Shown piece after piece: positions 11,470 through 38,294 of a stretch of DNA of 64,000 nucleotides (its first letter is position 1; every line of letters starts with the position of its first letter). The notes below the pieces were generated by a model, which searched no databases, had not been told where the DNA came from, and was given only the letters and a program-made list of their open reading frames with translations. A program made the position numbers and the translations under genes. This DNA is from a virus: the IMG/VR virus record IMGVR_UViG_3300013004_000026, positions 64,001 to 128,000 of that record, one strand, 5' to 3'.

Positions 11470-11718
11470 TTATAAAGCCGTGCGTTTCCTGGCCTTAACT
11501 ATCATTCCAACCCAGGTTCCGCAGAATGCGCCCACCAGTGCAGGAGCCAAAAGCCAGTGATTTGAAGTGTAATTGATCACAGCAACACTGGCACCAAAAT
11601 AACAGGCCACGCTCCAAACGCTGGCCATGAACACGCGATTGTCAGCCACACATCTTAGATAGTATGTGTAGACCAGGTCTAGCATGAACACAGCAAAAAA
11701 TGTAAAAATGTAATCCAC
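11470..11718 (-). CDS. small membrane protein
   Basis: Three hydrophobic segments, GAFCGTW. Confidence 0.65.
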   Translation of the reverse strand: MDYIFTFFAVFMLDLVYTYYLRCVADNRVFMASVWSVACYFGASVAVINYTSNHWLLAPALVGAFCGTWVGMIVKARKRTAL

Positions 11719-11734
11719 AGAAGTCTTAGAAAAG

Positions 11735-11754
11735 AATGGGGCCGAAGCCCCATT
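11735..11754 (-). terminator. terminator after tmRNA
   Basis: aatggggc-ttcg-gccccatt followed by a T-rich run on the minus strand. Confidence 0.8.
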
Positions 11755-11755
11755 G

Positions 11756-12170
11756 GTTGTTTGCTTAACAAGGTAAGTCCTACCCCGCTGGTTTCGCTGT
11801 TTAGGCGAAAGCTGCCTCAGTGCGAGCAGACTTGGAACCGCCGAAACGGAAACCTTTGCCTACTGTTACTTTAACACCAGATTGTGTATTTGCTTTTGCA
11901 TTTACTTTTTTGCGTCTTCGGCCGAGTTTCCCCAACCCTACGGTTTCTGCCTTACCGTGCTGTCCACTTATCTACTCTTTGCCCTGTCGAAACCAATGTC
12001 AGGCCCATCAAAAACACACTACTTGTCGCCTACTTGTTCCGCTTCGTCTAGAACTTATCGGACCCTTCGCTGACTGCCCTACAATAGGTGAGCAATGTGT
12101 TTATGGTGGACCTGGCGGGAGTCGAACCCGCGTCCAGAACACTTTTCCTTCTGCTTCATACAGCAATAAC
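11756..12170 (-). ncRNA. ssrA: circularly permuted (two-piece) tmRNA
   Basis: Acceptor piece with T-arm GGTTCGACTCC and CAGGTCCACCA (CCA end at 12104) comes first. Coding piece starts GGGCCTGACATTGGTTTCGAC at 12006. The 7-bp acceptor stem has G3.U70. Tag ORF at 11899-11801. Outer ends approximate. Confidence 0.92.
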
Positions 12171-12329
12171 TTAAATTCTAACTAACACCCACTTGGCTGT
12201 AAATGACTTACCTTCGGCCTTGTGTTTCGCAATCTTGCGGAACTCTTTTTTTTGAAGTTCTGCAATCTTTTTGGCATCGTGGTCGAAGCAAGCCTTGTAC
12301 AGTTCCATTACTAATTTGTTCTGTTTCAT
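12171..12329 (-). CDS. small basic protein (52 aa, MKQNKLVMELYKACFDHDAKK...), absent from track
   Basis: Hand translation; AAGGAGG SD; TAAATA late promoter upstream. Confidence 0.7.
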   Translation of the reverse strand: MKQNKLVMELYKACFDHDAKKIAELQKKEFRKIAKHKAEGKSFTAKWVLVRI

Positions 12330-22540: not shown

Positions 22541-23914
22541 TTACATTTTGGCCCTGAGCTTGTAGCGTTGTATTTTGCCTGTTTGGGTGCGCGGCAGCTG
22601 ATCTATAATTGCCATTTCTTTCACGTGCTGGTGCACCAGTTCATGACTCACTGTTTGGTCTGGCGTTGGCACAATATATGCCTTGAGTCTAGCATGTCCA
22701 TTGTCCTGCACTTGCCCTACCACCACGGTTTCCTGCACACCTGGTATATTCAACAAGGCCTGCTCGATCGCTGACAGGTCAACATAGTTACCATTAACTT
22801 TGATTACATCGCTAGCACGACCCAGGAAATATAAATTGCCAGCTTGATCTTGTTCCACAATGTCGCCTGTGGGCATCCACTCGCCAAATTGTTTTGCACT
22901 CCAATGCTTGTCATGCCAATAATACAGTCCGGCAGTGGGCGCTTGAATGTACAGGTGTCCGTCTCGTATGTCAATTTCATACCCGGGGATCACCCGACCA
23001 ATTGAATGTACTGGTGCATCGCCACTGTTGTAGGCCAAAGCTCCGGCAATTTCTGTGCTGCCATAAAGATTATGAATGTCAATGCCAGTGATTGTTTTCC
23101 AGCGATCATAAATGGTTGCTGACAATTTATCTGCTCCAGAAATGCATTTGCGCAAACAGTGTCCTTGCAGATTTTGTTCGCTCAGCTTGCCATACAACAC
23201 CGGAATCATGATTAAAAATGTCACTTGCTTTGATACCACAAGATTGGCTATGGTAGTTGGCACAAAAATACCAGGGTGCAAAATCACAGTGGCGCCAGCA
23301 AACAGCGTGGCCCAGAGATTGAACATGCCAAAACTGTAAAACAGCTTGGCAGCATTGAAAGTTCTGTCTTTACTAGTGTACCCCAGATGCGGACCTGTCA
23401 CTGTGCCAATGATATAAGGTGTGGCCTGTCTATGAACCACGGCTTTGGGATGCCCGGTAGTGCCTGAAGTGTACATGAATATACAGGCTGCATCTCTATG
23501 TGACTTGTAACCTGCCACAGGTGCATGTTCGTATGATATCAATGACTTGTTCATTGAATAATCTAGGCCTAGTTCTAGGTCATTTTCTTTTACTACCATA
23601 ACAGCACCTGAGTGCTGTATACAGTAACACAAGGAGTCCTTGTTGGCTCGTGGATCCAACGGCACCGCTACCATGCCGCCGTAGATCACAGCTAGCATCA
23701 GCGCAACAGTTTCGGCTGAATCTTTCATTACAATGGCTACTCGTTGTTCAGGCTGAATGCCCAGGGCCTGTAGCCATGCAGCCAGTTGACCCACACGCTG
23801 TTCTAGTTCAGCATAGGTCCAGATTTGTTCTGCATCTTCAATGGCTATGGCTGCAGGATTAGATGTTTTGAAAAGTTCAACAACAAAATTAAATTGATCA
23901 GGTATGGTTTGCAT
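22541..23914 (-). CDS. AMP-forming acyl/aryl-CoA ligase (benzoate-CoA-ligase-like)
   Basis: YTSGTTGHPK P-loop, AAKLFYSFG, YGSTE, TGD, GRASDVIK, PRTQTGKIQR. Confidence 0.85.
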   Translation of the reverse strand: MQTIPDQFNFVVELFKTSNPAAIAIEDAEQIWTYAELEQRVGQLAAWLQALGIQPEQRVAIVMKDSAETVALMLAVIYGGMVAVPLDPRANKDSLCYCIQHSGAVMVVKENDLELGLDYSMNKSLISYEHAPVAGYKSHRDAACIFMYTSGTTGHPKAVVHRQATPYIIGTVTGPHLGYTSKDRTFNAAKLFYSFGMFNLWATLFAGATVILHPGIFVPTTIANLVVSKQVTFLIMIPVLYGKLSEQNLQGHCLRKCISGADKLSATIYDRWKTITGIDIHNLYGSTEIAGALAYNSGDAPVHSIGRVIPGYEIDIRDGHLYIQAPTAGLYYWHDKHWSAKQFGEWMPTGDIVEQDQAGNLYFLGRASDVIKVNGNYVDLSAIEQALLNIPGVQETVVVGQVQDNGHARLKAYIVPTPDQTVSHELVHQHVKEMAIIDQLPRTQTGKIQRYKLRAKM

Positions 23915-23926
23915 ACCTGTATTTAA

Positions 23927-25081
23927 TTAGTGGAACATCAGGAAACTATTAATCACATCCAAACGATTGGCAGCTCGATCACCGTGCCCTGCTGGGAATA
24001 TGACCACATTCCATTTGGGTTTGGGCCCTTCTGGAACAGTCAACATCTGATCATAGGTAATGATAGTGTCTGCATCCAGTTTGTGCATGGAAGCAAGTTT
24101 TTGTTTGAATTCTTCCCAGGCTTCGGGGCTGGCAACCTGTGTACGACCTTTTTCGTCTTTCACATACTTGCCCTTGGCATCGGTTACAAACAAAGTACGG
24201 AACATGTCCTTGGGCACAGTGATTGCATCCTTGACCACGTTGCCAGCCTGCTTGTGTACTGCCACCTTCTTGACTTCACGACTTTGAGAGCCCGAACTGA
24301 AATTCACAATAAAGTTGGCAGGCTTGTTGCCCACTGCCACATCGCCCATTTTGGTATAGGCATAGAACTTTACATCAGGATTGTTGTTGGCCACACTGTA
24401 GGCCAAGTCTAGGTATTCTTTTGAAAAGAAATCACCAGCATCATGCCAACGCACTACCAGTCTAATACTGTGCTTGTCTGTTTTGCCTTTGAGTGTTTTG
24501 ACTTCACGATCCACCATGGCCATATAACCTTCTGGGTCGTTTACCAAAAAGTTTAGAGCTTGTGCAGCACTCATTGAGCTGGCTGGAAACATCACATAAC
24601 CGCCTTTTCTAGCATAACAAAACAGTTGGCATTCACCTGCACCCGGGCAGGTTGTTATCTCAACAAAGTCGCCATTGCTTTCATCTACTACAATACCTGA
24701 CAGTGCTGGCAAAGTGAGGTCGTATACAATTTCGCCTTCTGTACGACTCTTTTCCATCTTGGCATTGGTGCCCAGGATCTTGGAAGGGCGTTTCATGATC
24801 TGTTGAGCCAGGTCGTCTAGATCCCATTTGTCGTCTGGATTATCGCTTTGTGTGATAGCTTTGATATTGCTACCATGAACAATTGGAGCAAACCTGTCGC
24901 GTTTGGTTTTGGTGCCAGTTTTGATACGATCAGCATAGCCTTGTAATTCGTCACGACTCATACGACGCTGCGGAGCATCTAGTTTAAGAGTTTCTTCAAC
25001 ATCTTGATCTTCGATGTTCAAAGCCTGCACCTGGAAACCGCCCAGCGTTCTTGTTTCGTTTACTAATTCATTGTATCTCAT
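23927..25081 (-). CDS. GP88-like protein with capsid-targeting-like N-terminus
   Basis: MRYNELVNE; TCPGAGECQLFCYARKG, RWHDAGDF, YAYTK. Confidence 0.75.
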   Translation of the reverse strand: MRYNELVNETRTLGGFQVQALNIEDQDVEETLKLDAPQRRMSRDELQGYADRIKTGTKTKRDRFAPIVHGSNIKAITQSDNPDDKWDLDDLAQQIMKRPSKILGTNAKMEKSRTEGEIVYDLTLPALSGIVVDESNGDFVEITTCPGAGECQLFCYARKGGYVMFPASSMSAAQALNFLVNDPEGYMAMVDREVKTLKGKTDKHSIRLVVRWHDAGDFFSKEYLDLAYSVANNNPDVKFYAYTKMGDVAVGNKPANFIVNFSSGSQSREVKKVAVHKQAGNVVKDAITVPKDMFRTLFVTDAKGKYVKDEKGRTQVASPEAWEEFKQKLASMHKLDADTIITYDQMLTVPEGPKPKWNVVIFPAGHGDRAANRLDVINSFLMFH

Positions 25082-25278
25082 TTTTGTCTTCCTGACTTCA
25101 TGTTTGCACACCAATGGTACATCTTGCCTTTTTCACCACCGTGCTTTTTAGCCTTGGCTCTGAGACTGGTCACACTGCCATCACAGCTGGCACCTGAGCG
25201 TTTTACACGACCAGGACGACTCTTGCCTTTGACCTTGCCGTCGGCAAAGTTTTCAGTGATAATTTCATTTATTTTCAT
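25078..25278 (-). CDS. small basic putative internal head protein
   Basis: MKINEIITE leader followed by a K/R/G-rich domain. Confidence 0.75.
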   Translation of the reverse strand: MKINEIITENFADGKVKGKSRPGRVKRSGASCDGSVTSLRAKAKKHGGEKGKMYHWCANMKSGRQK

Positions 25279-26105
25279 TATTGTACATAGTCCATGAGAT
25301 TCACATTCTGACTGTTTTCAAGGTATTCGCGAATGTCATATTTAATATCAGTATTTCCGTATAGCGGATACTCTTTCCAGATCTGAACACCTTCTAAAAA
25401 ACTGCGATTGAATGCAGCAATTACTTCTTGTACATATTTTTCTGAGGTTGGCATTAATGTACGACGACTGCCTGATTGTCTGCGACGCAGCCACAGTTCT
25501 AGATCCTGTGCAATCACCTTGCCATTGGGACGATCACTAAACAGGTCGTCATCGTCTGTGTCTTCGCCCAGTGCTCGTACCTCAGCATAGGCCTGCTGTA
25601 TGAGCTTGGTTAACAAACTGCCCAGGTTGTATTCCATGGATTGAGCACAGTCGTACTGTATTTCTTCAATTTTACTGATATCATCCTCATCATACACTTC
25701 CATGAGCATTTCTTCTACATAAGCCCATAGTTCGCTTTCTGCACGAACTTCTGGAATAAAGTCCATGAGTATGTCGCCCAACCGATCTTCGTCCTGGATT
25801 ATCTCAGGCTCAGCAGCTAGAGTGTTCATGATACCAGGTAGTACCTGCACAGCTTCACGAGTGATCATCTGGTCAGCTAGTTCGTACACCTCTTCATTGC
25901 CACGAAATACTCTGTTAGCAGCAGCAAGGTCGCTGGAGATAGCACGAATAGTTATACCAGCATTGCTGCCCAGACCCTGAATGATGTCTTGAATCATTTC
26001 TGGTATGTTGGCATTAAAGGTAGCGCGGCGAATGTCACGGCCCACACGCTCGCTGTTGCCAAACATGTCGTTATCGTCATTTTCTAATAGTTCGTTGTAT
26101 CTCAT
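25278..26105 (-). CDS. acidic-tag polyprotein 1 (2 modules)
   Basis: MRYNELLE-NDDNDMFG; internal LGE-DTDDDDLFS. Confidence 0.75.
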   Translation of the reverse strand: MRYNELLENDDNDMFGNSERVGRDIRRATFNANIPEMIQDIIQGLGSNAGITIRAISSDLAAANRVFRGNEEVYELADQMITREAVQVLPGIMNTLAAEPEIIQDEDRLGDILMDFIPEVRAESELWAYVEEMLMEVYDEDDISKIEEIQYDCAQSMEYNLGSLLTKLIQQAYAEVRALGEDTDDDDLFSDRPNGKVIAQDLELWLRRRQSGSRRTLMPTSEKYVQEVIAAFNRSFLEGVQIWKEYPLYGNTDIKYDIREYLENSQNVNLMDYVQ

Positions 26106-28219
26106 TTCAGCTTCTTCACATACTGGTCCTGGCCAATAGCGTCTTGTGCATCGTGGCTGTCTTCTTCTGGCCAACAGTAGATATACTGTCCTGCAAAGTC
26201 TTTTACCAGCATCCAGCGAATGCCTGCGGCAGTGAACATGTGTGTTTGTGCTTTATATCCTGGCATGACATTTTCAAAGTCAATGTCGCCTGGGCCTAGA
26301 TCTCGTCCGTAGTCTTTAAGGAAGCCAGCCACTGCATTTACTTCTGCTGAACTGTTGGGTCCTTGCCCGCCTAGATTGGCCACCACATGTATGCGCTTGG
26401 TAGGTGTCATGGTTAGACTGCCAAACAGGCTCTTGCCCAGCTGGCGAATTTGATCTGCCATATTGCCCGGCAGGTTGGCCACTTGATGGAAGTCAGGATT
26501 CTGTACACCTGCTGCTTGCAGTGCTTGTCCTGCCACAGCTGGCAAGTTGGCTGTGTTCACTTCCACGCTAGGCAACTGCTCAGGTGGTTCCTCATCTGGA
26601 TATGCTTCTAAATCACGATCAACTTCAATGTTGCGCAGTTTACCCAGCATGTCTGCCATGTCGTCACTGCCAATGCCTGCGGTCCGGCTCAAGGTATCTT
26701 TTTGCTTGGCCTTTTTAATATTAACCTTGGGTTCATCCCCCAAGCCTGCTTTCTTTTTAAGATCGTCCAATGGATCTGTTCGTGCCAGTGGATGATCTTG
26801 ATCCTGTTGAAAAGGAATATCAAACTTGATATCAGGCTTGGTCTTGGTTGTGGTCTTGCGTGGACGCTCTGGAGGCTCTTCAAGTTCTGCTTCTCCTAAT
26901 TTTTCCCACGAGTCATTTGTGCTGGTATCGCCCGATGGATCTGTGTTCCATGCATCACATACTTCTTCATATGCGCCAAATAGATCACCCATTTCATCAT
27001 CATCAACACCATATTCGGCTTGCATTTGGTCATCATACTCGTCAAACCTTGAAGTAACTTGCAGTGCCTGTTTCAAAGTTAGCTTATGGCTCAAAGCAAA
27101 TTCAGCTATGGCACGAAAATTATATCTATTAGGATCCACACGGCTCCACAGGTATAGTGCCTGTGCTGTTTTTGGTGGTGTTTGAGCAGTGCCAAACAGC
27201 TCATCATCTGACTCTGCATCTGCTTCTGTTACACTTTCAGAAGGATTGGCTCCAGTAATACTCACAGACGCCTTTTTACCCTTGTTACGCAACGATCTTG
27301 CAATATTCTCTGCTTGTTGTTTGTCAGCAAATACTTTCCAGGTACGGCCATCTATAACCACTGCATAGTTATTTTGTTCTTCTTGGCCATAACCTTCATC
27401 GTCTTCGCGTTCACGACGTCCGCCTAGACTAGGTGCAGTTGGACTTGCAAAACCATGACTGTACCCGCGGTTGCCTTCTAAATGTAATTTCTTCATGTTT
27501 CTTGCAACTTCGCCCGGGCGCACATCCTTGGTCAAGCTCATGCTGTAGCGAGGATCATTCTTTTGTTTTTTGCTGGCAACTACACCAACCCCTGCGGCAT
27601 CTTCGGACATGCTTCTGGAAGGCCCGTATACAAATGCTTTTGGATTAAGTCCGTACTTGTCTGCAACAGCGGCAATAAATGATTCCACTTTGCTATTTGG
27701 AATCTGTGCGCCAACTTTCTTTTGAATTGGCATGTTGTTTTTGCCTTTGCCTTTGATATAGATATCAACTAACTGGTCTTTGGTAATGATAGCACCTTCG
27801 CCCATGCCTTGTTCACCAATGTATGCATACACATCACTGGCAATTTTTTCCAGCTCAGACAGTGCTCTACTGACCTTTTGCACAGGCTCCTTGTAGGCAA
27901 AATCTTTGATAGGATCATCGCTCATCTGATCATCATACTTGTCAAACAGTTTTGCAAACATCTTGGCATTGGAAAAAATAGCATCAATACCAAGGTCGTC
28001 TGCTTCTTCGGTTATGCTGTTATATGCTGCTTGTAGACGCTGATGCAGTTTGTCACGCATGCTTTTGTCACCAAACAGGTCAGCATCTGTATCAGTGCTT
28101 TCATTCTTGTTACGGCCTGCGCAATGCGCTCGTTGGCTGAAGCCCTTGGGGCTGGCACAGTTGATACTTTTCTTGTATTTCTGGCTCCACTCGTCGTTTA
28201 GGAAATCTTTGCTTTTCAT
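26102..28219 (-). CDS. acidic-tag polyprotein 2 (multi-module)
   Basis: MKSKDFLNDE; KNE-STDTDADLFG; VTE-ADAESDDELFG; further hydrophobic-X-E junctions (MGE, MSE, LGE). Confidence 0.8.
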   Translation of the reverse strand: MKSKDFLNDEWSQKYKKSINCASPKGFSQRAHCAGRNKNESTDTDADLFGDKSMRDKLHQRLQAAYNSITEEADDLGIDAIFSNAKMFAKLFDKYDDQMSDDPIKDFAYKEPVQKVSRALSELEKIASDVYAYIGEQGMGEGAIITKDQLVDIYIKGKGKNNMPIQKKVGAQIPNSKVESFIAAVADKYGLNPKAFVYGPSRSMSEDAAGVGVVASKKQKNDPRYSMSLTKDVRPGEVARNMKKLHLEGNRGYSHGFASPTAPSLGGRREREDDEGYGQEEQNNYAVVIDGRTWKVFADKQQAENIARSLRNKGKKASVSITGANPSESVTEADAESDDELFGTAQTPPKTAQALYLWSRVDPNRYNFRAIAEFALSHKLTLKQALQVTSRFDEYDDQMQAEYGVDDDEMGDLFGAYEEVCDAWNTDPSGDTSTNDSWEKLGEAELEEPPERPRKTTTKTKPDIKFDIPFQQDQDHPLARTDPLDDLKKKAGLGDEPKVNIKKAKQKDTLSRTAGIGSDDMADMLGKLRNIEVDRDLEAYPDEEPPEQLPSVEVNTANLPAVAGQALQAAGVQNPDFHQVANLPGNMADQIRQLGKSLFGSLTMTPTKRIHVVANLGGQGPNSSAEVNAVAGFLKDYGRDLGPGDIDFENVMPGYKAQTHMFTAAGIRWMLVKDFAGQYIYCWPEEDSHDAQDAIGQDQYVKKLK

Positions 28220-29241
28220 TTCAGTCCACCTGTAAAATCTCGTACTGCGTTTTGGAACCAGTCTTCGCTTTCTATATCATCGTCGTTCTTGAATCGTTCC
28301 CATGCATCTGTGAGTTCATGGAACTGCCCATTATCCAACATCCAGCCAAAATCGTTCAAGCCTTCCATGCCAGCAAATTCACGAATAATGATGTCAACCA
28401 CAAACGCCTGTCTAAATGGCTTTTTGGTGATGCGTACCACTTGATCAAACTGAGCATCTGTGTCACCTGCTTCTTGGTATTGTTTGTATTCTGTTCGTAT
28501 GTCAGGCACGCTCCAGCTCTGTTCCAGTTGGTTCAATATCTGTTTACCAACCTGATAGATCATGCCTTTCGCGCCTGCAGGCTGTGCACCAAACAGTTCG
28601 TCGTCATGGTCTTCAACAGCTTCATTGATAATATGTTCTGGTTTGACCTGATGTGGACTGATGTTCTTTTCCAAAGGCCAATCCACATTCTTGAACTTTA
28701 CTTGTACTACCAAGCGACCACTGGGTGTGAGTCTAACCACCTTCCCCTTGTAGTATTTGCCGTTGTCCCACTTGACCATGAGTCGGGTACCAGGCTGTAT
28801 GTTCAATGCATCACGCTGTGCTGTGCGACGAATGGTTTTACCTCGGAGTTCATGCCGGCGGTCTAGCTTAGGACTGGTGGAGAACAGGTCGTCATCATCT
28901 GCGCTTTCTGGAATTTGTTTCACATAGTCGCGAAAGTCCATGTCAAATTCTATGTCTATGACATCATCCACTGCACCTTTCCAGCTTCTATCTAGGCTGC
29001 GATAAACTTTCACTCCCATGGCCATGCTTTGATTAAAAGCGTCTGCTATGTACCGGTAGTTACTGGCTTGTTTGGCAAACTCAGCAGCATTTTCTAAATC
29101 GCCAAGGCCACGCTCTTCATCTGATACACGCTGGTCTTCTTCACTCTGTGCCAACAGAGCATTGGCAATGCGATGATGCAGACCGCGACCAAACAGGTCA
29201 TCGTCATCATCCTGGCTCTCAATGATCTCGTTATAGCGCAT
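28216..29241 (-). CDS. acidic-tag polyprotein 3 (3 modules, middle one Tudor/SH3-like)
   Basis: MRYNEIIE-SQDDDDDLFG; IPE-SADDDDLFS; INE-AVEDHDDELFG. Confidence 0.8.
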   Translation of the reverse strand: MRYNEIIESQDDDDDLFGRGLHHRIANALLAQSEEDQRVSDEERGLGDLENAAEFAKQASNYRYIADAFNQSMAMGVKVYRSLDRSWKGAVDDVIDIEFDMDFRDYVKQIPESADDDDLFSTSPKLDRRHELRGKTIRRTAQRDALNIQPGTRLMVKWDNGKYYKGKVVRLTPSGRLVVQVKFKNVDWPLEKNISPHQVKPEHIINEAVEDHDDELFGAQPAGAKGMIYQVGKQILNQLEQSWSVPDIRTEYKQYQEAGDTDAQFDQVVRITKKPFRQAFVVDIIIREFAGMEGLNDFGWMLDNGQFHELTDAWERFKNDDDIESEDWFQNAVRDFTGGLK

Positions 29242-30706
29242 GGCGGTCCTCGTTGGATTCGTCGCTTTCATACAGTTGATCATGAACCAATTCATTTAGT
29301 TCGCCGCTGTCATGATACATGTCATTGAGTTGGTCTAACTGTTCGTCAGTTAGTGGTTTGCCGTCCTGAGTTTCTGCATACACAATATGTGCATCCACAA
29401 AGTCAGGATAGTCTCTGCTATCAATGCCGTCTATTTCAATGCTGCGGCGGTTAATGTTTTCATGCCAGCGACGCCCAAACAGTTCGTCGTCATCTGTTTC
29501 TCTTAATCGGCTGCTACGATCCAAGTGTAGTATCAGATCATGTTCGCCACCACTGATACCAACCACACGAAAATTTTTGTGGTCTTCAATATAGTGATTT
29601 ATTATATCAACATCTTGCTCGGGATCATCACCATAAGAAAATCCAAGTGCTTGTAACTGATCTTCGTCATACTCATTGAATACATCACCAAATCTTATCC
29701 TAGGTGCTGCAAACAAGTCATCGTCATCATTGCTTTCGTCAATCGGGTTATCAGTTATTGGAAAATGCGCTACAGGCACTCCACTGTCGTTGTTCCCACG
29801 CTGTTTGTACACCGTGATGAAATCGTCATCACCCCAGCCATCTTCTAGATATATCGGAACTTGTTTTTTGGCATGTGCTATTGCTTCGCGTATGTCACTG
29901 AACATGCCAAGTATTTCGTCGTCGGGTGCCGAGACTACAAATACCTTTTGTTCACCATCACCAAACAGTTCATCGTCTGACTCAGCGCTTTCATTCATGC
30001 CATGTTCGTCAAACAGTTGCTCTAGACTGATGTCTGTTTCTTCTTCTAGCTCTGCGGCAATACGCTCCCACCACCAGTCTTCACTGTTGTCCTGCCACAT
30101 GATCAGTCCGGCCTGCATGCCCTGTCTAATAAAAGCATCTGCTACCTGTTTCAGTGTCTTGGCTTCTTCGCGAATGTCTTCTAGGTCGCTGTCGTATTCT
30201 TCGCCGTCACTTGGATCCAGGCCCGATATCTCTGCAGGATTGTTGCGCATGGTGTTGGCAAAACCCATGAGCCACTGTCCTATGCGACGGTGTACAGGAT
30301 CACCAAACAGTTCGTCATCGTCACTTTCGTCTAGTATGTTTGAAAATGGTGGCGGCACACGCACACTGAGCCACTCGGAACTGGTAAACTTGCATTCAAA
30401 GCCTTGACTTTCTAGCTCTGCTTTGATCTCATGTGCCACAGGTGGAGCCTGTGGCAGCTCATCATCTGGTCCTCTGTCATAGTTGCCAAACCAGAATGTG
30501 GCTGTGCCTCGTGCTGCTTTGGTAGGCTGTGCGCTCACCCGAACCTTAACTCCAAACTGATTCTTGGCTATGTCCCGTACACGATGCACTGTGCGCTGGT
30601 ACGGATTTTGTATCTGTTTGATTGATTGTTTTATGTTAGTAGACAGCTCACCTGGCTTACTAAACAAGTCATCGTCTGTGTTTTCAATCAGTTCACTGTA
30701 GCGCAT
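29231..30706 (-). CDS. acidic-tag polyprotein 4 (5 modules)
   Basis: LIE-NTDDDLFS; LDE-SDDDELFG; MNE-SAESDDELFG; IDE-SNDDDDLFA; LRE-TDDDELFG. Confidence 0.85.
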   Translation of the reverse strand: MRYSELIENTDDDLFSKPGELSTNIKQSIKQIQNPYQRTVHRVRDIAKNQFGVKVRVSAQPTKAARGTATFWFGNYDRGPDDELPQAPPVAHEIKAELESQGFECKFTSSEWLSVRVPPPFSNILDESDDDELFGDPVHRRIGQWLMGFANTMRNNPAEISGLDPSDGEEYDSDLEDIREEAKTLKQVADAFIRQGMQAGLIMWQDNSEDWWWERIAAELEEETDISLEQLFDEHGMNESAESDDELFGDGEQKVFVVSAPDDEILGMFSDIREAIAHAKKQVPIYLEDGWGDDDFITVYKQRGNNDSGVPVAHFPITDNPIDESNDDDDLFAAPRIRFGDVFNEYDEDQLQALGFSYGDDPEQDVDIINHYIEDHKNFRVVGISGGEHDLILHLDRSSRLRETDDDELFGRRWHENINRRSIEIDGIDSRDYPDFVDAHIVYAETQDGKPLTDEQLDQLNDMYHDSGELNELVHDQLYESDESNEDRHAL

Positions 30707-31979
30707 GACCCTGCTCCTGTAGTTTGGCTGTGTACTGTTTGGCCACCTGTTTCATCATGAAACGAAACAGTGGATCACGCACAGTGAGTTCAATGATGTG
30801 TGCCATTGCATCCTTGTGAATCTTCTGTCCTGATTGTACCAGAGCGTCTTTTAGTTTGGTAACCACAGTGCTTTGCTCTGCCACAGCTCGCAGAGCATCG
30901 TTGGTGCTCAACATACTTTCAATACGATCTTCATCACGAGCCAGTTCTGGTGTACCACTCAGCTGTTTCCAGAAATTGCCCATGGCCTTCACACACTGTG
31001 CCAGATAGTCACGCATGTCACCGGACAGTTCTTGTTTAACGGAATCAGGCAGTCGCACGCCGTAGCTGTCAAGACCTTTGAAACCAAATGCAATAATACG
31101 ATCAGCATACTGATCAATCAACTGGGTGGTGGCCTTCTGCACTTCAGGTGTGGCTTCAATCACAATGTTTTTGTATTCGTCGGACAACAGTGCAGGAATC
31201 ATGAACTGCTCTGCAGGCTTCTGCAGGATCTTGGTCAACACAGGAAAACGTGCCACCAATTTCTTCATACCGTTGTCACCAATCTGACGATCCTGTTCAT
31301 TCATGAACTGCTTGGTTTCAAAGTGAAACTGATACTTTTCGCCCGGATAAGCCTGCTGGCGTGGAATGATCACATACAGTGGACGATCGCCACGAGTGTA
31401 GTAATCATACATGTTGTTGTTCTTGCCTGCGGTACACCAGCGTGTGCCTTGACCGTAGTAGCAGGCAGCTTCCACATCATTGGGTACAGTAACAATCAGC
31501 TGATTGTCACGATACAGCTCTGTGGCATTTTTCTTTTCTTCTGGTTTGGATTCTGCTTCTTCGTCTGGATACTCGTCTACCACATCATAAAAAGACTCTA
31601 GATCTTTATATCGATTGAAGTCATTGCGTGGAGGTTGAATCTTTTTGCGACGTTTGAGTTTGTCAAACTTGGCAAGATAGTCTGCCAAGGTACTGGCAAC
31701 ATCTTCTAACTTGCTTTGCCCCATGGCATACAGTTTGGCAATGCTCTGACTGTATTCTTTATTGCGGGTGGGATCACCGCGTTCAATCCAGGTCAACAGA
31801 TAGTCCAGTACCTGTTCAGGATTTTTTTTCACAGTGTCTTTGATATTACCACCTGGTAACGCATTGTTATACTGTTGCACAAACCATGCATCTCTTACGG
31901 CCACTGCCAAGAGTTTTTCGCCATAGGCTGCTGCGGTCTTGCCGCGATCATATTCTAATAAAAATTCTAAACTTTTCAT
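30693..31979 (-). CDS. putative internal head protein with GTRWCTA motif
   Basis: MKSLEFLLE leader; ACYYGQGTRWCTAG, KYQFHFE. Confidence 0.75.
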   Translation of the reverse strand: MKSLEFLLEYDRGKTAAAYGEKLLAVAVRDAWFVQQYNNALPGGNIKDTVKKNPEQVLDYLLTWIERGDPTRNKEYSQSIAKLYAMGQSKLEDVASTLADYLAKFDKLKRRKKIQPPRNDFNRYKDLESFYDVVDEYPDEEAESKPEEKKNATELYRDNQLIVTVPNDVEAACYYGQGTRWCTAGKNNNMYDYYTRGDRPLYVIIPRQQAYPGEKYQFHFETKQFMNEQDRQIGDNGMKKLVARFPVLTKILQKPAEQFMIPALLSDEYKNIVIEATPEVQKATTQLIDQYADRIIAFGFKGLDSYGVRLPDSVKQELSGDMRDYLAQCVKAMGNFWKQLSGTPELARDEDRIESMLSTNDALRAVAEQSTVVTKLKDALVQSGQKIHKDAMAHIIELTVRDPLFRFMMKQVAKQYTAKLQEQGHALQ

Positions 31980-32959
31980 TGTATAATCTCAGTGTGTTGT
32001 CTTACATACAATTTGATCAACATACCAGCTGCCATGTCTGCTTGACTTTCAATATCAGCTAGGTCTTGGGTAGCGTATGTGTTGCCATCTTCGCGTTGCT
32101 TGTGATGTGCCAGTTCGTGAGCCACAGTACGCATGATATCAATCATGTTTCTATTTCCTGTGTACACCCACAGCTTGCCAGTGTCAGGTCTATAATAACC
32201 AGTACGATTCTGATCAGGCGCTTCTTTTTCCTGCTGAAATTCAATCCCTGGCAACGAGTCGGTGATGTGTAACTTTTTCTTGACCCAGCTGATAAAATGT
32301 CCCATTCTGTCAGGATCAAAAGATTCTTTGAGATCTTGATCCTGTGTGGCCACTGGTAAACTTCTATCTACACTTTTCAACTGTTGGGGTTGGTGTTCTA
32401 TTTCTTTACGGATGATGGCCATTGCTCTTTGCAGTCCCTTGAGTACAATTTCAAGACTGTCTTCATCTGCTTGATATTTTATACCCACACCGCCGGCTGC
32501 TTCCCAGGCAGTGATGTTGCTGCCCCGGTCATCTATTAGAACATTGGGTGTGCCATCGGGCTGAATGGCATGTTTGGCCTTGTTAGGCGTTATGATCACT
32601 TGTGCAGGCTGTGTGCTTAGATTTTCTTTCAACCAAACTTTTTTATGGTGTGCGCTGTTGGCATGATCGCCTCGCAAGGGGCTGGAGCAAATGTTGTAGT
32701 GCCCAAAAATTTTAATTACCATGTTTACCAAGGCATCTGCTGTGGGAAACTTTGGCAAACGAGCAAAGAAATCCGTACCAATCATTTTGTTCAGTGTAGG
32801 ATCAGTTTTGGCTGCAGGAATGTTTCTGTAGTTATAACGACCACTGCCGTCTTTGGGATTACCAGCAAGTTTGGCATACTCTTCAAAAAAGTCGCAGAGA
32901 ACTCCGTCCATGTCCAAGAACACTTCGCTTTTGCCTTTGAGAAATTCTTTACTCTGCAT
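31976..32959 (-). CDS. HAD 5'(3')-deoxyribonucleotidase fused to a zincin-like domain
   Basis: MQSKEFL leader; DMDGVLCDF, LIDDR; after an LKE junction a second domain with RTVAHELAHH...E. Confidence 0.85.
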   Translation of the reverse strand: MQSKEFLKGKSEVFLDMDGVLCDFFEEYAKLAGNPKDGSGRYNYRNIPAAKTDPTLNKMIGTDFFARLPKFPTADALVNMVIKIFGHYNICSSPLRGDHANSAHHKKVWLKENLSTQPAQVIITPNKAKHAIQPDGTPNVLIDDRGSNITAWEAAGGVGIKYQADEDSLEIVLKGLQRAMAIIRKEIEHQPQQLKSVDRSLPVATQDQDLKESFDPDRMGHFISWVKKKLHITDSLPGIEFQQEKEAPDQNRTGYYRPDTGKLWVYTGNRNMIDIMRTVAHELAHHKQREDGNTYATQDLADIESQADMAAGMLIKLYVRQHTEIIQ

Positions 32960-33767
32960 GTATAACTTTCAATATCACGGTGTTAAGATGGTTTTCTAGT
33001 TCTGTAAACAATTTGTGTTTTAGAGTGCTGCAAAAAAGTTCTGCATGAGCGGCTGCTCTTCGTTGAGCTATTCGCTTGTAACTGCTGGAGTCTACCCATT
33101 GTTTTATTTCATCAGCTAATGCTAAATTTCTAGCTTCATAGTTTTCCATCACTTCTAGTGATAATTTATTGACTATGTCTAATACCAATTTGTGCCAGTG
33201 CAAGGGCAGTTCGTCTAACAATGCATCCAACAGAATAACATGATTACCTTTTTTTAACTGTAGTCCAGACAGCATACATTTAGCATGATAATGTTCGCGA
33301 ATGAATCTAAAAAGAGTATCGTTGTCTATCCAACTGTTAGCAGACTCTACAAATTTTTGTACTACCATGGCATGCTTGATCTCTAGAATGTCTAGATCAA
33401 AATGCAAACTCAGTATCGGAATATTTTTCCGCACATCGTTTAGTTCAGGCATCTGGAGCCAAAATTCTAGATCTGGATGTTGTTGTCTAAACTGCAAAGG
33501 CGATACTGGGTTGTTGTTTTTGTTATTAATACAACTGCCATGCAACAGAGCTATTTTTGCATTTATATCAAAATAGCGTTGGTGGTCACTTACTGAATAT
33601 ATTGGTGCCATGCTCTGAACAAATTTTGACAAAAACTGTTGATGCTTGTAACACTTCTCAATCGGAATATCCTGTGATTCAAAAGTACCAACAGTGCTGC
33701 TATCGTTCAACACATGAACTGCAATACCATTCTGATTCAAAATTTGAGTGCGAACAAAGTCAACCAT
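32949..33767 (-). CDS. hypothetical protein (no leader motif)
   Basis: ORF track; overlaps both neighbours. Confidence 0.65.
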   Translation of the reverse strand: MVDFVRTQILNQNGIAVHVLNDSSTVGTFESQDIPIEKCYKHQQFLSKFVQSMAPIYSVSDHQRYFDINAKIALLHGSCINNKNNNPVSPLQFRQQHPDLEFWLQMPELNDVRKNIPILSLHFDLDILEIKHAMVVQKFVESANSWIDNDTLFRFIREHYHAKCMLSGLQLKKGNHVILLDALLDELPLHWHKLVLDIVNKLSLEVMENYEARNLALADEIKQWVDSSSYKRIAQRRAAAHAELFCSTLKHKLFTELENHLNTVILKVIHAE

Positions 33768-34528: not shown

Positions 34529-35119
34529 TTAGCGGTTTTCTAGCACCCGATCTGCTAGTCCATATGCAACTGCTTCGGTTGCGTTCATGAAAAAATCTCG
34601 TTCCATGTCAGCAGCGATTTCGTCAAATGTGCGCTCTGCACTGTTGTGCTGTACATACACATCTGTTAGAGTATGCTTCATTTTGAGTATTTCTCTAACC
34701 TGAATTTCCATGTCTGTGGCTTGCCCGCCAGCACCGCCCGAAGGCTGATGAATCATGTGTCTTGCATGAGGAAGTATGAGTCGTTTGCCCGCGGCGCCTG
34801 CTTGTGCTAATAAACTACCCATAGAACAGGCCTGCCCCATCACAATAGTACTCACACTTGGTTTGATAAATTGCATGGTATCATAGATGGCCATACCTGC
34901 TGTGACCACACCACCTGGGCTATTGATATAGAACAAGATGTCTGTGTCTGGATCTTCGCTTTCAAGATACAGTAGCTGAGCCACAATCAAACTGGCACTG
35001 TGTTCATTTACATCAGTGTCCAACATCACAATACGATCTTTGAGCAAACGACTGTACAAATCATAACTGCGTTCGCCTGCTGAAGTGCGTTCAAGCACCA
35101 TGGGTACCAAATGTGGCAT
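34529..35119 (-). CDS. clpP: ATP-dependent Clp protease proteolytic subunit
   Basis: [25 protein letters not shown] (Ser), MIHQP (His), ERD (Asp). Confidence 0.97.
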
Positions 35120-35180: not shown

Positions 35181-35696
35181 CTAGGTTTTGCGCAAGTCTT
35201 GATGGCGGAACCAGCGTTTTTGTCCATGAGACTGTTTGAGAGTCAGTTGCCAGTCTTCAAACACATCTCGCCAGAGAAAAAAACTTGGGCCATGAGCACC
35301 GCTGTTGAGATGCATTTCTCGTCCAAATCGTTCTTTATGATCCCAACGATATATGTCCCACTGCCATTGGTGTACCATTTCATGCGCCAGTGTGTTGCAA
35401 AACCATTGGGGACAAAACCACTTGTCATAAAGTTCTATGGTACACCAAGTTCCGTTTTTGTTCCAGCCGCCTTTGCGTTGTCGTGTGTCTTGCCAACTGC
35501 AACGACCCCAGGCCTTTTGCAAAGTGCCAAGTGTAATGTTAGGTTGGGTCAGGGCGTTGTCAAAAATGTAACGATTAATAGCCCTATATAATGAATCCAC
35601 TTCTTGTGGCTCAGGGCGATAGGGTAATTTTTTTTGAACACTGATGCCAGGCAATCCTGCGTTCATATATTGGGTTATTAAATGTGGACGCCCCAT
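35181..35696 (-). CDS. SprT-like metalloprotease
   Basis: TLAHEMVHQWQ, HGPSF. Confidence 0.85.
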   Translation of the reverse strand: MGRPHLITQYMNAGLPGISVQKKLPYRPEPQEVDSLYRAINRYIFDNALTQPNITLGTLQKAWGRCSWQDTRQRKGGWNKNGTWCTIELYDKWFCPQWFCNTLAHEMVHQWQWDIYRWDHKERFGREMHLNSGAHGPSFFLWRDVFEDWQLTLKQSHGQKRWFRHQDLRKT

Positions 35697-38174: not shown

Positions 38175-38294
38175 GTTTACCTCTTTGAAATAATCTAGCT
38201 CATAGTGTAGCAAAACTAGCATTAAGTGTCAACCTAAAAAAAAGCTCCATAATATGGAGCTTTTAGTGTTGCAAAATTAACAACTGTTGCAAGA

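What the first reader, a model, noticed from the sequence alone, without database searches (positions are those of the whole stretch)
25278..30706. Candidate new system: polyproteins of tandem modules, each opened by a protease site plus an acidic DDD(D/E)LF(G/S) tag
Seen: four consecutive genes hold 12 copies of E-[0-4 aa]-acidic run-[LM]-F-[GSA], at about nt 30684, 30329, 29992, 29737, 29500, 29220, 28908, 28623, 28100, 27226, 26084 and 25566. A weaker DDDEMGDLFG lies near 26990. Eleven of the 12 follow hydrophobic-X-E (LIE, LDE, MNE, IDE, LRE, IIE, IPE, INE, VTE, LLE, LGE; exception KNE). In three of the genes the tags separate mostly unrelated domains of about 80-170 aa, and the first tag directly follows the CTS-like leader. 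Codons differ among copies, so selection acts on the peptide and this is not a DNA repeat. Known: T4-type prohead proteases cut after Glu in [ILV]-X-E. Inference: capsid-loaded polyproteins are cut into about a dozen small effectors, each with the same new N-terminal tag. The tag could be an ejection/sorting signal, a protease exosite, or a docking mimic of acidic-aromatic motifs such as the SSB tail DDDIPF or the clamp-binding DLF. I know of no description of such a tagged effector array.
Basis: partly seen in the sequence, partly recalled or inferred. Interest (0 to 1): 0.92.

Follow-up and report, generated by a model that had tools for sequence, protein, structure and literature searches.

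The report
Tagged cargo polyproteins of a jumbo phage
Four neighbouring genes of an uncultured T4-related giant phage encode strings of small, swappable protein domains; each domain is preceded by a head-protease-type cutting site and a conserved acidic "DDDELFG" peptide, so they are probably loaded into the capsid and cut into a kit of small injected proteins, but no cutting or packaging has been measured.

Summary
Ten fit a strict pattern, against 0.05 expected by shuffling. In the 168-kb contig the pattern occurs almost only in these four genes.

A complete 355-kb syntenic relative also confines its 17 tags to the same four genes. That relative encodes a T4-type prohead protease and capsid protein.

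Of 270 tags in homologs, 92% have [LIVM]-x-Glu just upstream, against 14% of control windows. This is the published cutting rule of T4 gp21.

Homology blocks break at the tags, and module order is shuffled between phages. AlphaFold2 places the tags in disordered linkers between folded domains.

A junction profile finds about 90 protein clusters, some with 13-15 tags. Five cultured relatives have none.

The neighbouring gene's homolog in phage PA5oct is a virion protein by mass spectrometry.

The capsid-cargo reading is therefore well supported by sequence but has no protein-level data. What the acidic-LF tag does is unresolved. The weak 13th tag is probably not a junction.

I found no published description. 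This scan has noted the same kind of system on other DNA, in at least 36 genomes.

The parts
29231..30706 (-). Gene A, 491 aa. It has the leader MRYSELIE followed by five tagged modules of 79-119 aa.
   Evidence: ORF. The AF2 model shows five folded domains (pLDDT about 90) separated by low-confidence linkers at the tags, with pTM 0.35. It has 84 homolog clusters, mostly covering only part of the query.
28216..29241 (-). Gene B, 341 aa counted from the MRYNEIIE methionine. It has three tagged modules; the middle one is basic, with a weak Tudor-like hit.
   Evidence: The G001 ortholog is 80% identical over the first two modules.
26102..28219 (-). Gene C, 705 aa. It has the leader MKSKDFLNDE, a 30-aa basic Cys-containing peptide, two true tags, and several folded domains joined by untagged disordered stretches.
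25278..26105 (-). Gene D, 275 aa counted from the MRYNELLE methionine. It has two tagged modules.
30659..30691 (-). Junction A1: LIE|NTDDDLFS, directly after the leader.
30302..30334 (-). Junction A2: LDE|SDDDELFG.
   Evidence: AF2 gives pLDDT below 50 at residues 125-132. Homology segments (HSPs) end at residue 135.
29960..29998 (-). Junction A3: MNE|SAESDDELFG.
   Evidence: AF2 gives pLDDT below 50 at residues 241-250.
29708..29743 (-). Junction A4: IDE|SNDDDDLFA.
   Evidence: AF2 gives pLDDT below 50 at residues 323-327.
29474..29506 (-). Junction A5: LRE|TDDDELFG.
   Evidence: AF2 gives pLDDT below 50 at residues 399-412. Twenty-nine HSPs end at residue 411.
29188..29226 (-). Junction B1: IIE|SQDDDDDLFG, after the leader.
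28879..28914 (-). Junction B2: IPE|SADDDDLFS.
28588..28629 (-). Junction B3: INE|AVEDHDDELFG.
28070..28108 (-). Junction C1: KNE|STDTDADLFG. This is the one junction without a hydrophobic residue at P3.
   Evidence: It lies in a disordered stretch, residues 13-50.
27191..27232 (-). Junction C2: VTE|ADAESDDELFG.
   Evidence: It lies in a disordered stretch, residues 325-368.
26975..27007 (-). Weak look-alike VDDDEMGDLFG. It is probably not a junction.
   Evidence: There is no hydrophobic-x-E upstream. It lies in a predicted helix, residues 407-425.
26058..26090 (-). Junction D1: LLE|NDDNDMFG, after the leader.
25536..25571 (-). Junction D2: LGE|DTDDDDLFS.
30693..31979 (-). Gene F, 428 aa, with leader MKSLEFLLE and no tag. 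It is found next to or close to the polyproteins in every lineage examined.
   Evidence: It is 75% identical in G001. F-like genes with an LLEYDRxKT start occur in loci L031, L032, L036 and L038. The PA5oct homolog EST35_0205 is a 'structural protein, ESI-MS/MS'.
25078..25278 (-). Small basic protein of 66 aa with leader MKINEIITE and no tag.
23927..25081 (-). Gene E, a GP88-family protein with leader MRYNELVNE and no tag. It is the last gene of the leader-bearing block.
   Evidence: Pfam PF17338, E = 2.4e-31. Leader. GP88 genes lie in the same block in L031, L032 and L036.

Best explanation
Genes A-D encode capsid-cargo polyproteins of a T4-related jumbo phage.

Proposed mechanism (inferred):
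1. The N-terminal leader (MRYxE[LI][LIV]E, a close look-alike of the T4 capsid targeting sequence) takes each chain into the assembling prohead core.
2. The phage's T4-gp21-type prohead protease cuts after the Glu of each [LIVM]-x-E in the flexible linkers.
3. This releases 2-5 small folded proteins per chain here, and up to about 15 in relatives. Median module size is about 100 aa, the size range of T4 internal proteins.
4. Each released protein then starts with the same acidic peptide, [SNT]-x(0-3)-[DE](3-5)-[LM]-F-[GSA].

I read that peptide as a docking tag recognised by one conserved partner that differs between lineages. The partner is most likely inside the head, and the tag would serve retention, placement or exit with the DNA. 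I do not read it as a mere spacer.

Shown here: the motif, its position in linkers, module shuffling at the tags, and the protease and capsid genes in a complete relative.

Inferred: packaging, cutting, ejection and the role of the tag.
For: 1. Specificity match. Of 270 distinct tags in homologs, 248 (92%) have [LIVM]-x-E within 12 residues upstream, against 14% of control windows in the same proteins. T4 gp21 cuts after L/I-x-E (PMC9026906).

2. The clade has the enzyme. The complete syntenic relative G001 (354,959 bp) encodes Peptidase_S77 (96 bits) beside a Gp23-type capsid protein (337 bits). Its capsid protein carries YLAE|SATAG, and its acidic core protein starts MNKYEKLIE.

3. Leaders resemble T4 ipII/ipIII MKTYQEFIAE. 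They head successive genes of the block in five lineages.

4. Tags lie in disordered linkers between independently folded domains.

5. Homology breakpoints fall on the tags, and module order is permuted between phages.

6. The tag is kept right after the leader and in single-module genes. It is therefore not just an inter-domain spacer.

7. Leader-only proteins exist, so the leader and the tag are separable signals.

8. Tag flavour is uniform within a protein and differs between lineages (all MFA, all LFA, all LFG). Homogeneity exceeds all 1000 shuffles. This fits one co-evolving reader.

9. The homolog of adjacent gene F in PA5oct is a virion protein by ESI-MS/MS.
Against: - There are no protein-level data of any kind.
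- The window's own contig is 47% complete and lacks Peptidase_S77 and Gp23. The protease is inferred from a relative.
- The block lies about 200 kb from the head genes in G001 and next to rIIA. It is preceded by sigma-70-like promoters, and no T4 late motif TATAAATA lies nearby. That suggests early expression, although I recall that T4's internal-protein genes are also transcribed early.
- Modules are mostly acidic (median pI about 4.3), whereas T4 internal proteins are basic (pI 8.9-9.5).
- Three other protease genes lie nearby: a SprT-like protease, ClpP, and a weak zincin-type match (Pfam DUF6782).
- [LIVM]-x-E could instead be part of one longer binding motif.
Confidence: 0.5

Rival explanations
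1. Packaging and cutting occur as in the best explanation, but the acidic-LF stretch is only the prime-side or exosite part of the cut site plus a soluble spacer. It would make linkers between folded domains good substrates and would have no role after cleavage.
For: The tag always accompanies the [LIVM]-x-E and lies in the linker. Lineage-specific flavours could track the lineage's protease.
Against: Leader sites on tagless proteins have the same [LIVM]-x-E without any tag. The distance from Glu to Leu varies from 4 to 11 residues, which is loose for an exosite. The tag is conserved directly after the leader and in single-module genes, where no inter-domain cut is needed.
Confidence: 0.2
2. 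These are not capsid cargo. They would be cytoplasmic, possibly early, multivalent proteins whose repeated acidic-LF peptides are short linear motifs. The motifs would dock many copies of a host or phage hub, such as a sliding clamp, with or without cleavage.
For: Sigma-70-like promoters lie upstream and early-type genes are neighbours. Acidic-LF repeats work as multivalent docking motifs in eukaryotic FAM21 (PMC3374753). FAM21-like proteins also scored with the junction HMM. The T4 polymerase ends SLDFLFG and the G001 polymerase ends FDSLFSFE, which loosely resemble the tag.
Against: This reading does not explain why 92% of tags carry the exact gp21-type site. It does not explain why whole blocks of genes share a T4 CTS-like leader. 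It does not explain why the neighbouring gene's homolog is a virion protein. Known T4 clamp-binding peptides are C-terminal, and the bacterial motif's conserved Gln is absent.
Confidence: 0.15
3. This is a polyvalent-protein model. The chains are cut by a protease encoded beside the block rather than by the prohead protease. The candidates are the SprT-like protease, ClpP, or the zincin-like domain of the NT5C gene. Cutting might occur after delivery.
For: SprT-like and ClpP genes sit upstream of the block in the window, G001 and L036, and ClpP also in L031. Iyer et al. predict release of domains by zincin-like peptidases in polyvalent proteins (PMC5512222). [LM]-F would suit a hydrophobic P1 preference.
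Against: The DUF6782 hit is below Pfam's cut-off (20.1 against 27 bits). No ClpP lies within 10 kb upstream in L032. ClpP needs an unfoldase and degrades processively rather than making single cuts (general knowledge). None of these enzymes explains the [LIVM]-x-E signature.
Confidence: 0.1
4. The tag is a DNA-level recombination joint or a chance low-complexity feature.
For: Module shuffling does occur exactly at the tags. The GAY-rich coding could offer microhomology.
Against: Codons vary freely while the peptide is nearly invariant. Phe is invariant and two other columns are at least 90% conserved in 130 junction windows. Shuffling predicts 0.047 copies against 10 observed.
Confidence: 0.03

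Closest known systems
Phage T4 internal proteins IPI, IPII, IPIII and Alt, with their capsid targeting sequence and gp21 processing
   Same: Both have a short N-terminal leader of the same pattern (T4 MKTYQEFIAE; here MRYSELIE, MKINEIITE, MKSKDFLNDE). The leader ends in hydrophobic-x-Glu. A T4-type Peptidase_S77 is present in the clade. The products are small, about 80-190 aa. The loci are variable.
   Different: T4 has one protein per gene. Here 2-15 modules are strung in one chain with internal cut sites. Every module carries an extra acidic-LF peptide that T4 proteins lack. Modules are mostly acidic rather than basic. Nothing here has been shown at the protein level.
Polyvalent proteins of phages and conjugative elements (Iyer, Burroughs, Anand, de Souza, Aravind 2017; PMC5512222)
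   Same: Many unrelated domains sit in one polypeptide, with extensive mosaicism. Delivery with the DNA is presumed, as is release into separate units by proteolysis.
   Different: Those proteins are defined by a known repertoire of enzyme domains and an embedded zincin-like peptidase. Here no module matches Pfam, and no peptidase is embedded. The joints carry a uniform prohead-protease-type site plus a tag, a feature that did not appear in the parts of that paper I searched.
Inner-body and ejection proteins of phiKZ, 201phi2-1 and SPN3US
   Same: Many head-internal proteins are cut, often at several sites, after Glu by a gp21-related protease.
   Different: Their motif is S/A-x-E (PMC9026906). 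Here P3 is L/I/V/M in 92% of tags. Their cuts mostly remove propeptides rather than separating tandem independent modules, and they have no shared tag.
FAM21 (WASH complex) LFa repeats
   Same: A short acidic run followed by Leu-Phe is repeated many times in one protein and serves as a docking peptide. Such proteins were picked up at low score by the junction HMM.
   Different: FAM21 is eukaryotic. Its motif is L-F-acidic-L-F inside one long disordered tail. It has no folded modules between copies and no protease site. This is an analogy of chemistry, not of descent.
Encapsulin cargo-loading peptides (from my own knowledge; not tested here)
   Same: A short peptide tag on otherwise unrelated cargo proteins docks them to the inside of an HK97-fold shell. 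This is what I think the tag may work like.
   Different: Those peptides are usually C-terminal, hydrophobic and Gly-rich rather than acidic. The shell is not a virus. No docking has been shown here.

Membership tests
T4-type capsid-targeted internal proteins (CTS plus gp21 processing) | An N-terminal leader of about 8-10 aa like MKTYQEFIAE, ending in L/I-x-E | tested here: met
   T4 ipII and ipIII leaders were read from NC_000866. Window leaders are MRYSELIE, MRYNEIIE, MRYNELLE, MRYNELVNE, MKINEIITE and MKSKDFLNDE.
T4-type capsid-targeted internal proteins (CTS plus gp21 processing) | The phage encodes a gp21-type prohead protease (Pfam Peptidase_S77) | tested here: inconclusive
   It is absent from the window's own 168-kb contig, which is only 47% complete. 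It is present at 96 bits, next to a Gp23 capsid protein, in the complete syntenic relative G001.
T4-type capsid-targeted internal proteins (CTS plus gp21 processing) | The protein is found in virions with the leader removed | not testable with these tools
   Five cultured relatives carry no tag. The only indirect support is that the PA5oct homolog of neighbouring gene F is a virion protein by MS.
T4-type capsid-targeted internal proteins (CTS plus gp21 processing) | Small basic proteins | tested here: not met
   Size fits: median module length is 101 aa. Median pI is 4.3, and only a minority are basic. T4 IPs have pI 8.9-9.5.
Polyvalent proteins (Iyer et al. 2017) | 2-15 unrelated domains in one polypeptide with mosaic architectures | tested here: met
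   AF2 shows five independent domains in gene A. Module orders are shuffled between phages. Relatives have up to 15 tags.
Polyvalent proteins (Iyer et al. 2017) | An embedded zincin-like metallopeptidase and the known domain repertoire | tested here: not met
   Genes A-D have no significant Pfam or PHROG family; the only match is a sub-threshold Tudor_2 hit in gene B (18.2 against 31.4 bits). A neighbouring gene has only a sub-threshold DUF6782 hit.
phiKZ/SPN3US-type processed head proteins | Cleavage motif S/A-x-E | tested here: not met
   P3 counts are L 125, I 71, V 32, M 18, Y 8 and F 2 among 256 sites.
SSB C-terminal tail mimic (DDDIPF-COOH) | An acidic run ending in a C-terminal Phe with a free carboxylate | tested here: not met
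   In 296 junction contexts selected on the pattern acidic-[LMIV]-F-[GSA], the Phe is by construction followed by G/A/S (198/69/29) and then by a folded domain, so it is never C-terminal. The need for a free carboxylate is from general knowledge.
Sliding-clamp-binding peptides (bacterial QL[SD]LF; T4-type C-terminal SLDFLFG) | A conserved Gln/Leu core, or a C-terminal position on a replication or transcription protein | tested here: inconclusive
   There is no Gln, and the tags are internal. The match is limited to [DE]-L-F-[GS], shared with T4 gp43 SLDFLFG and G001 polymerase FDSLFSFE. No binding test was possible.
FAM21 LFa motif | L-F-[DE](3-10)-L-F in a disordered tail of a eukaryotic protein | tested here: not met
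   The phage tags have a single LF after the acidic run and are separated by folded domains.

The most novel reading that the evidence does not exclude
The acidic-LF peptide is a new kind of address label for virion cargo. It would be a portable tag of about 8 residues, exposed at the N-terminus of each module by the prohead protease. One phage-encoded reader (shell interior, portal, or the conserved F protein) would use it to hold, order or eject a mixed kit of up to about 15 small proteins per precursor. This would amount to a programmable multi-effector delivery system in uncultured T4-related jumbo phages.
Probability: 0.3. Interest if true: 0.85.

Novelty: new variant of a known kind. Interest (0 to 1): 0.68.

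Why it matters
If this is right, T4-related jumbo phages deliver a shuffled, fast-evolving kit of many small proteins with their DNA, not just a few internal proteins. The kit would be made economically from a few precursors with one loading leader.

The modules are uncharacterised. They are small, mostly acidic proteins with no family assignment, and they are good candidates for host-takeover or counter-defence factors acting in the first seconds of infection.

The leader, cut site and tag together would form a compact, portable grammar for loading and releasing cargo in phage heads. That would interest work on phage-based protein delivery, which already uses the T4 leader.

The finding also gives a concrete, testable handle on an open question: how proteins inside the head are retained, arranged and expelled.

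Tried and rejected
- Pfam and PHROGs on genes A-D gave nothing significant, only a sub-threshold Tudor_2 hit in gene B.
- megablast and tblastn of the region and of gene A against 50,697 phage records found no match.
- Foldseek of the gene A model against the PDB gave nothing at E <= 0.001. Against BFVD there were only weak matches of one module to small stand-alone phage proteins.
- Peptidase_S77 and Gp23 were not found in the window's own contig, which is a fragment.
- The T4 late promoter motif TATAAATA is absent near the block and not enriched in the window.
- A search for a T4 gp45 clamp homolog in G001 and G000 by tblastn found none. The gp55-like protein of G001 has no SLDFL-type tail. 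The clamp idea could therefore not be developed.
- GP88 homologs in cultured phages carry no virion annotation.
- The ESM Atlas look-up of gene F returned only unnamed viral clusters.
- Four literature searches for a description of tagged cargo polyproteins found none.
- The DNA-repeat explanation was rejected on codon variation.
- The SSB-tail mimic was rejected because the Phe is internal.
- A 2A-like ribosome-skipping peptide or an acidic stalling peptide was considered from general knowledge. I set it aside because the tag lacks the NPGP core and has only 3-5 acidic residues. This was not tested.


Full report
WHAT IS THERE

The window is bases 64001-128000 of a 168,427-bp IMG/VR virus contig that CheckV rates 47% complete. 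The whole genome is therefore probably about 350 kb. rIIA and an ATP-dependent DNA ligase lie in the window.

On the minus strand, four translationally overlapping genes fill 25278-30706:
- Gene A, 29231-30706, 491 aa.
- Gene B, 341 aa from the MRYNEIIE methionine near 29241.
- Gene C, 26102-28219, 705 aa.
- Gene D, 275 aa from the MRYNELLE methionine near 26105.

Eleven follow hydrophobic-x-Glu and one follows KNE.

IS IT MORE THAN CHANCE?

Ten copies fit [DE][DE][LM]F[GSA]. Five thousand residue shuffles of the same proteins give a mean of 0.047 and never more than 2.

In all six frames of the 168-kb contig, a looser pattern hits 11 times, 10 of them in these genes.

Codons differ between copies. 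Selection is therefore on the peptide, not on a DNA repeat.

RELATIVES

Gene A has 84 homolog clusters in metagenomes. Most cover only part of the query, and together they hold 370 tags. Most of these proteins start with MRYxE[LI][LIV]E or a close variant.

One relative is a complete genome, G001 (IMGVR_UViG_3300017917_002374, 354,959 bp, with terminal repeats). The whole block is syntenic there. Its 17 tags lie only in the four orthologous genes.

G001 encodes a T4-type prohead protease (Peptidase_S77, 96 bits) next to a Gp23-type major capsid protein (337 bits). Its head cluster runs portal, acidic core protein, protease, scaffold, capsid. The capsid protein carries YLAE|SATAG, and the core protein begins MNKYEKLIE.

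By capsid protein, the nearest cultured phages are Sinorhizobium phage Phosso, Vibrio phage 2.275.O, Pseudomonas phage PA5oct and Erwinia phage pEa_SNUABM_19. None of these has a single DD[DE]LFG, and neither does Salicola phage SCTP-2. The tag system is therefore confined to an uncultured subgroup, and no virion proteome covers it.

THE JUNCTION

Aligning 296 junction contexts on the Leu-Phe gives this consensus: hydrophobic-x-E, then S/N/T, then 3-5 Asp/Glu, then L/M, F, G/A/S, often with Pro two or three residues later.

Of 270 distinct tags, 248 (92%) have [LIVM]-x-E in the 12 residues upstream. The figure for control windows from the same proteins is 14%. Only 18% of other Glu residues have such a P3.

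The distance from that Glu to the Leu varies from 4 to 11 residues. This suggests two adjoining elements rather than one rigid motif.

T4 gp21 cuts after Glu in L/I-x-E. The first 10 residues of IPIII are sufficient for loading into the head (PMC9026906). The T4 leaders were read here from the T4 record: MKTYQEFIAE for ipII and ipIII.

MODULES

BLAST alignments between these proteins and their homologs start a few residues before a cut site and stop just after a tag. For example, 29 alignments end at residue 411 of gene A, the last residue of TDDDELFG.

Cutting all proteins at the tags and clustering the pieces shows the same module families in many orders, for example F1-F4 in some proteins and F4-F1 in others. 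Median module length is 101 aa.

AlphaFold2 on gene A, with a 100-row alignment, gives five well-folded domains with pLDDT about 90. They are separated by low-confidence stretches at 1-30, 125-132, 241-250, 323-327 and 399-412, which are the tags. The pTM is 0.35, as expected for beads on a string.

Gene C is modelled less well. Its two true tags (aa 38-50 and 330-343) lie in disordered stretches. The weak DDDEMGDLFG lies in a predicted helix and has no cut site, so I do not count it.

No module has a Pfam, PHROG or PDB-fold assignment. One module resembles small stand-alone phage proteins. Most modules are acidic, with median pI 4.3. This differs from the basic T4 internal proteins.

HOW WIDE IS THE FAMILY?

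I built a profile from 130 junction windows and ran it against 1.84 billion representative proteins. It found 94 proteins at E <= 0.001 and 38 at E <= 1e-10.

The new hits include chains of 1,441, 1,750 and 1,332 aa with 13-15 tags. They also show other leader variants (MRLFDLFE, MNLFDIFE, MFIHDLFE).

In five lineages (the window, G001, L031, L032, L036) the polyproteins sit in a block of genes that share such leaders. The block includes a GP88-family protein and the conserved F protein. A sixth, short contig (L038) also carries leader-bearing polyproteins beside F-like genes. SprT-like and ClpP genes lie upstream in three of the lineages, and ClpP also in L031.

Some leader-bearing proteins have no tag: GP88, F and a 66-aa basic protein. 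Some single-module genes have leader plus tag. Leader and tag are therefore separable, and the tag is not just a spacer between domains.

Tag flavour is uniform within a protein and differs between lineages (all MFA, all LFA or all LFG). The homogeneity exceeds all 1000 shuffles, although relatedness contributes to this.

The lowest-scoring profile hits look like eukaryotic proteins with FAM21-type acidic-LF repeats, a known multivalent docking motif.

INDIRECT EVIDENCE FOR VIRION LOCATION

Gene F is translationally coupled to gene A. It has a homolog in PA5oct (36% identity over 191 aa) annotated as a structural protein detected by ESI-MS/MS. That protein also begins with a leader-like MKLFEVFTLYE. 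PA5oct has no tags.

INTERPRETATION

The leaders load the chains into the prohead. The gp21-type protease cuts them at the junction Glu. Each released module keeps the acidic-LF peptide at its new N-terminus. I put this at about 0.5, and about 0.7 if the cut-site-only variant is included.

The role of the tag is open. I favour a docking peptide for one lineage-specific reader. Three observations support this: the tag is kept where no inter-domain cut is needed, tagless leader sites show that the cut site itself needs no tag, and tag flavours are concerted within lineages.

Points against the cargo reading:
- There is no protein evidence.
- The setting looks early: sigma-70-like promoters, rIIA next door, and no TATAAATA.
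- The modules are acidic.
- Three other protease genes lie nearby.

The SSB-tail idea fails because the Phe is never C-terminal. The clamp idea rests only on a loose likeness to the C-termini of the T4 and G001 polymerases.

NOVELTY

The T4 leader system, processing of head proteins after Glu, and the concept of polyvalent proteins are all known (PMC9026906, PMC5512222).

What I could not find described is the combination seen here: tandem independent modules, each opened by a prohead-protease-type site plus a conserved acidic-LF tag. I class it as a new variant of a known kind.

This scan has noted the same kind of system before on other DNA: 45 notes in at least 36 genomes. Those are AI notes of the same type, not independent evidence.

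Noticed in passing
window 11871-12165 (-): A permuted (two-piece) tmRNA gene. It matches Rfam RF04321 at 98.6 bits over the full model. ARAGORN also calls a tmRNA at 11710-12196 with a 32-residue tag peptide. A phage-borne tmRNA in a jumbo phage deserves its own look.
   Followed up: partly
window 34529-35119 (-) and 35181-35696 (-): A ClpP gene (Pfam CLP_protease, E = 1e-77; 85% identical in G001) and a SprT-like metalloprotease gene sit just upstream of the leader-bearing block. The same pair is found there in G001 and L036, and ClpP also in L031. Whether they act on the polyproteins is unknown.
   Followed up: partly
window 28097-28189 (-), gene C aa 11-41: A basic Cys-containing peptide (WSQKYKKSINCASPKGFSQRAHCAGR) lies between the leader and the first tag. 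The same peptide follows the leader in an unrelated deaminase-family protein (P0189). A similar basic Cys motif is in the 66-aa protein at 25078-25278.
   Followed up: no
proteins P0126-P0198: This is a large set of metagenomic phage proteins of 400-1200 aa. They start with MFIQQLFE- or MYAHELFE-type leaders followed directly by a cytidylyltransferase-like domain (PF01467). They share internal modules with gene C but have no acidic-LF tags. One relative (P0218) has both the enzyme and four tags.
   Followed up: partly
window 22541-23914 (-) and 32949-33767 (-): An AMP-binding/acyl-CoA-synthetase-like gene and a 272-aa gene of unknown function are present here but have no counterpart in the syntenic block of G001. 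They look like lineage-specific insertions.
   Followed up: no
window 31976-32959 (-): A fusion of a 5'-deoxynucleotidase (NT5C) with a C-terminal HExxH domain, which gives a sub-threshold DUF6782 hit and matches the PHROG metallo-protease family. It lies inside the block. In L031 the NT5C part is fused to a different N-terminal domain.
   Followed up: no
window 38264-38240 (-) and 22525-22498 (-): Strong terminator-like hairpins bracket the region. Good sigma-70-like promoters lie at 38232, 37998 and 36517 (-). The block may therefore be transcribed by host polymerase.
   Followed up: no
proteins P0224, P0227, P0233, P0252, P0255, P0256, P0259, P0265, P0266: These low-scoring hits of the junction profile have dense DDDLFG-type repeats with no folded modules and no hydrophobic-x-E. 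They look like eukaryotic FAM21-type LFa proteins and appear to be convergent, not related.
   Followed up: no
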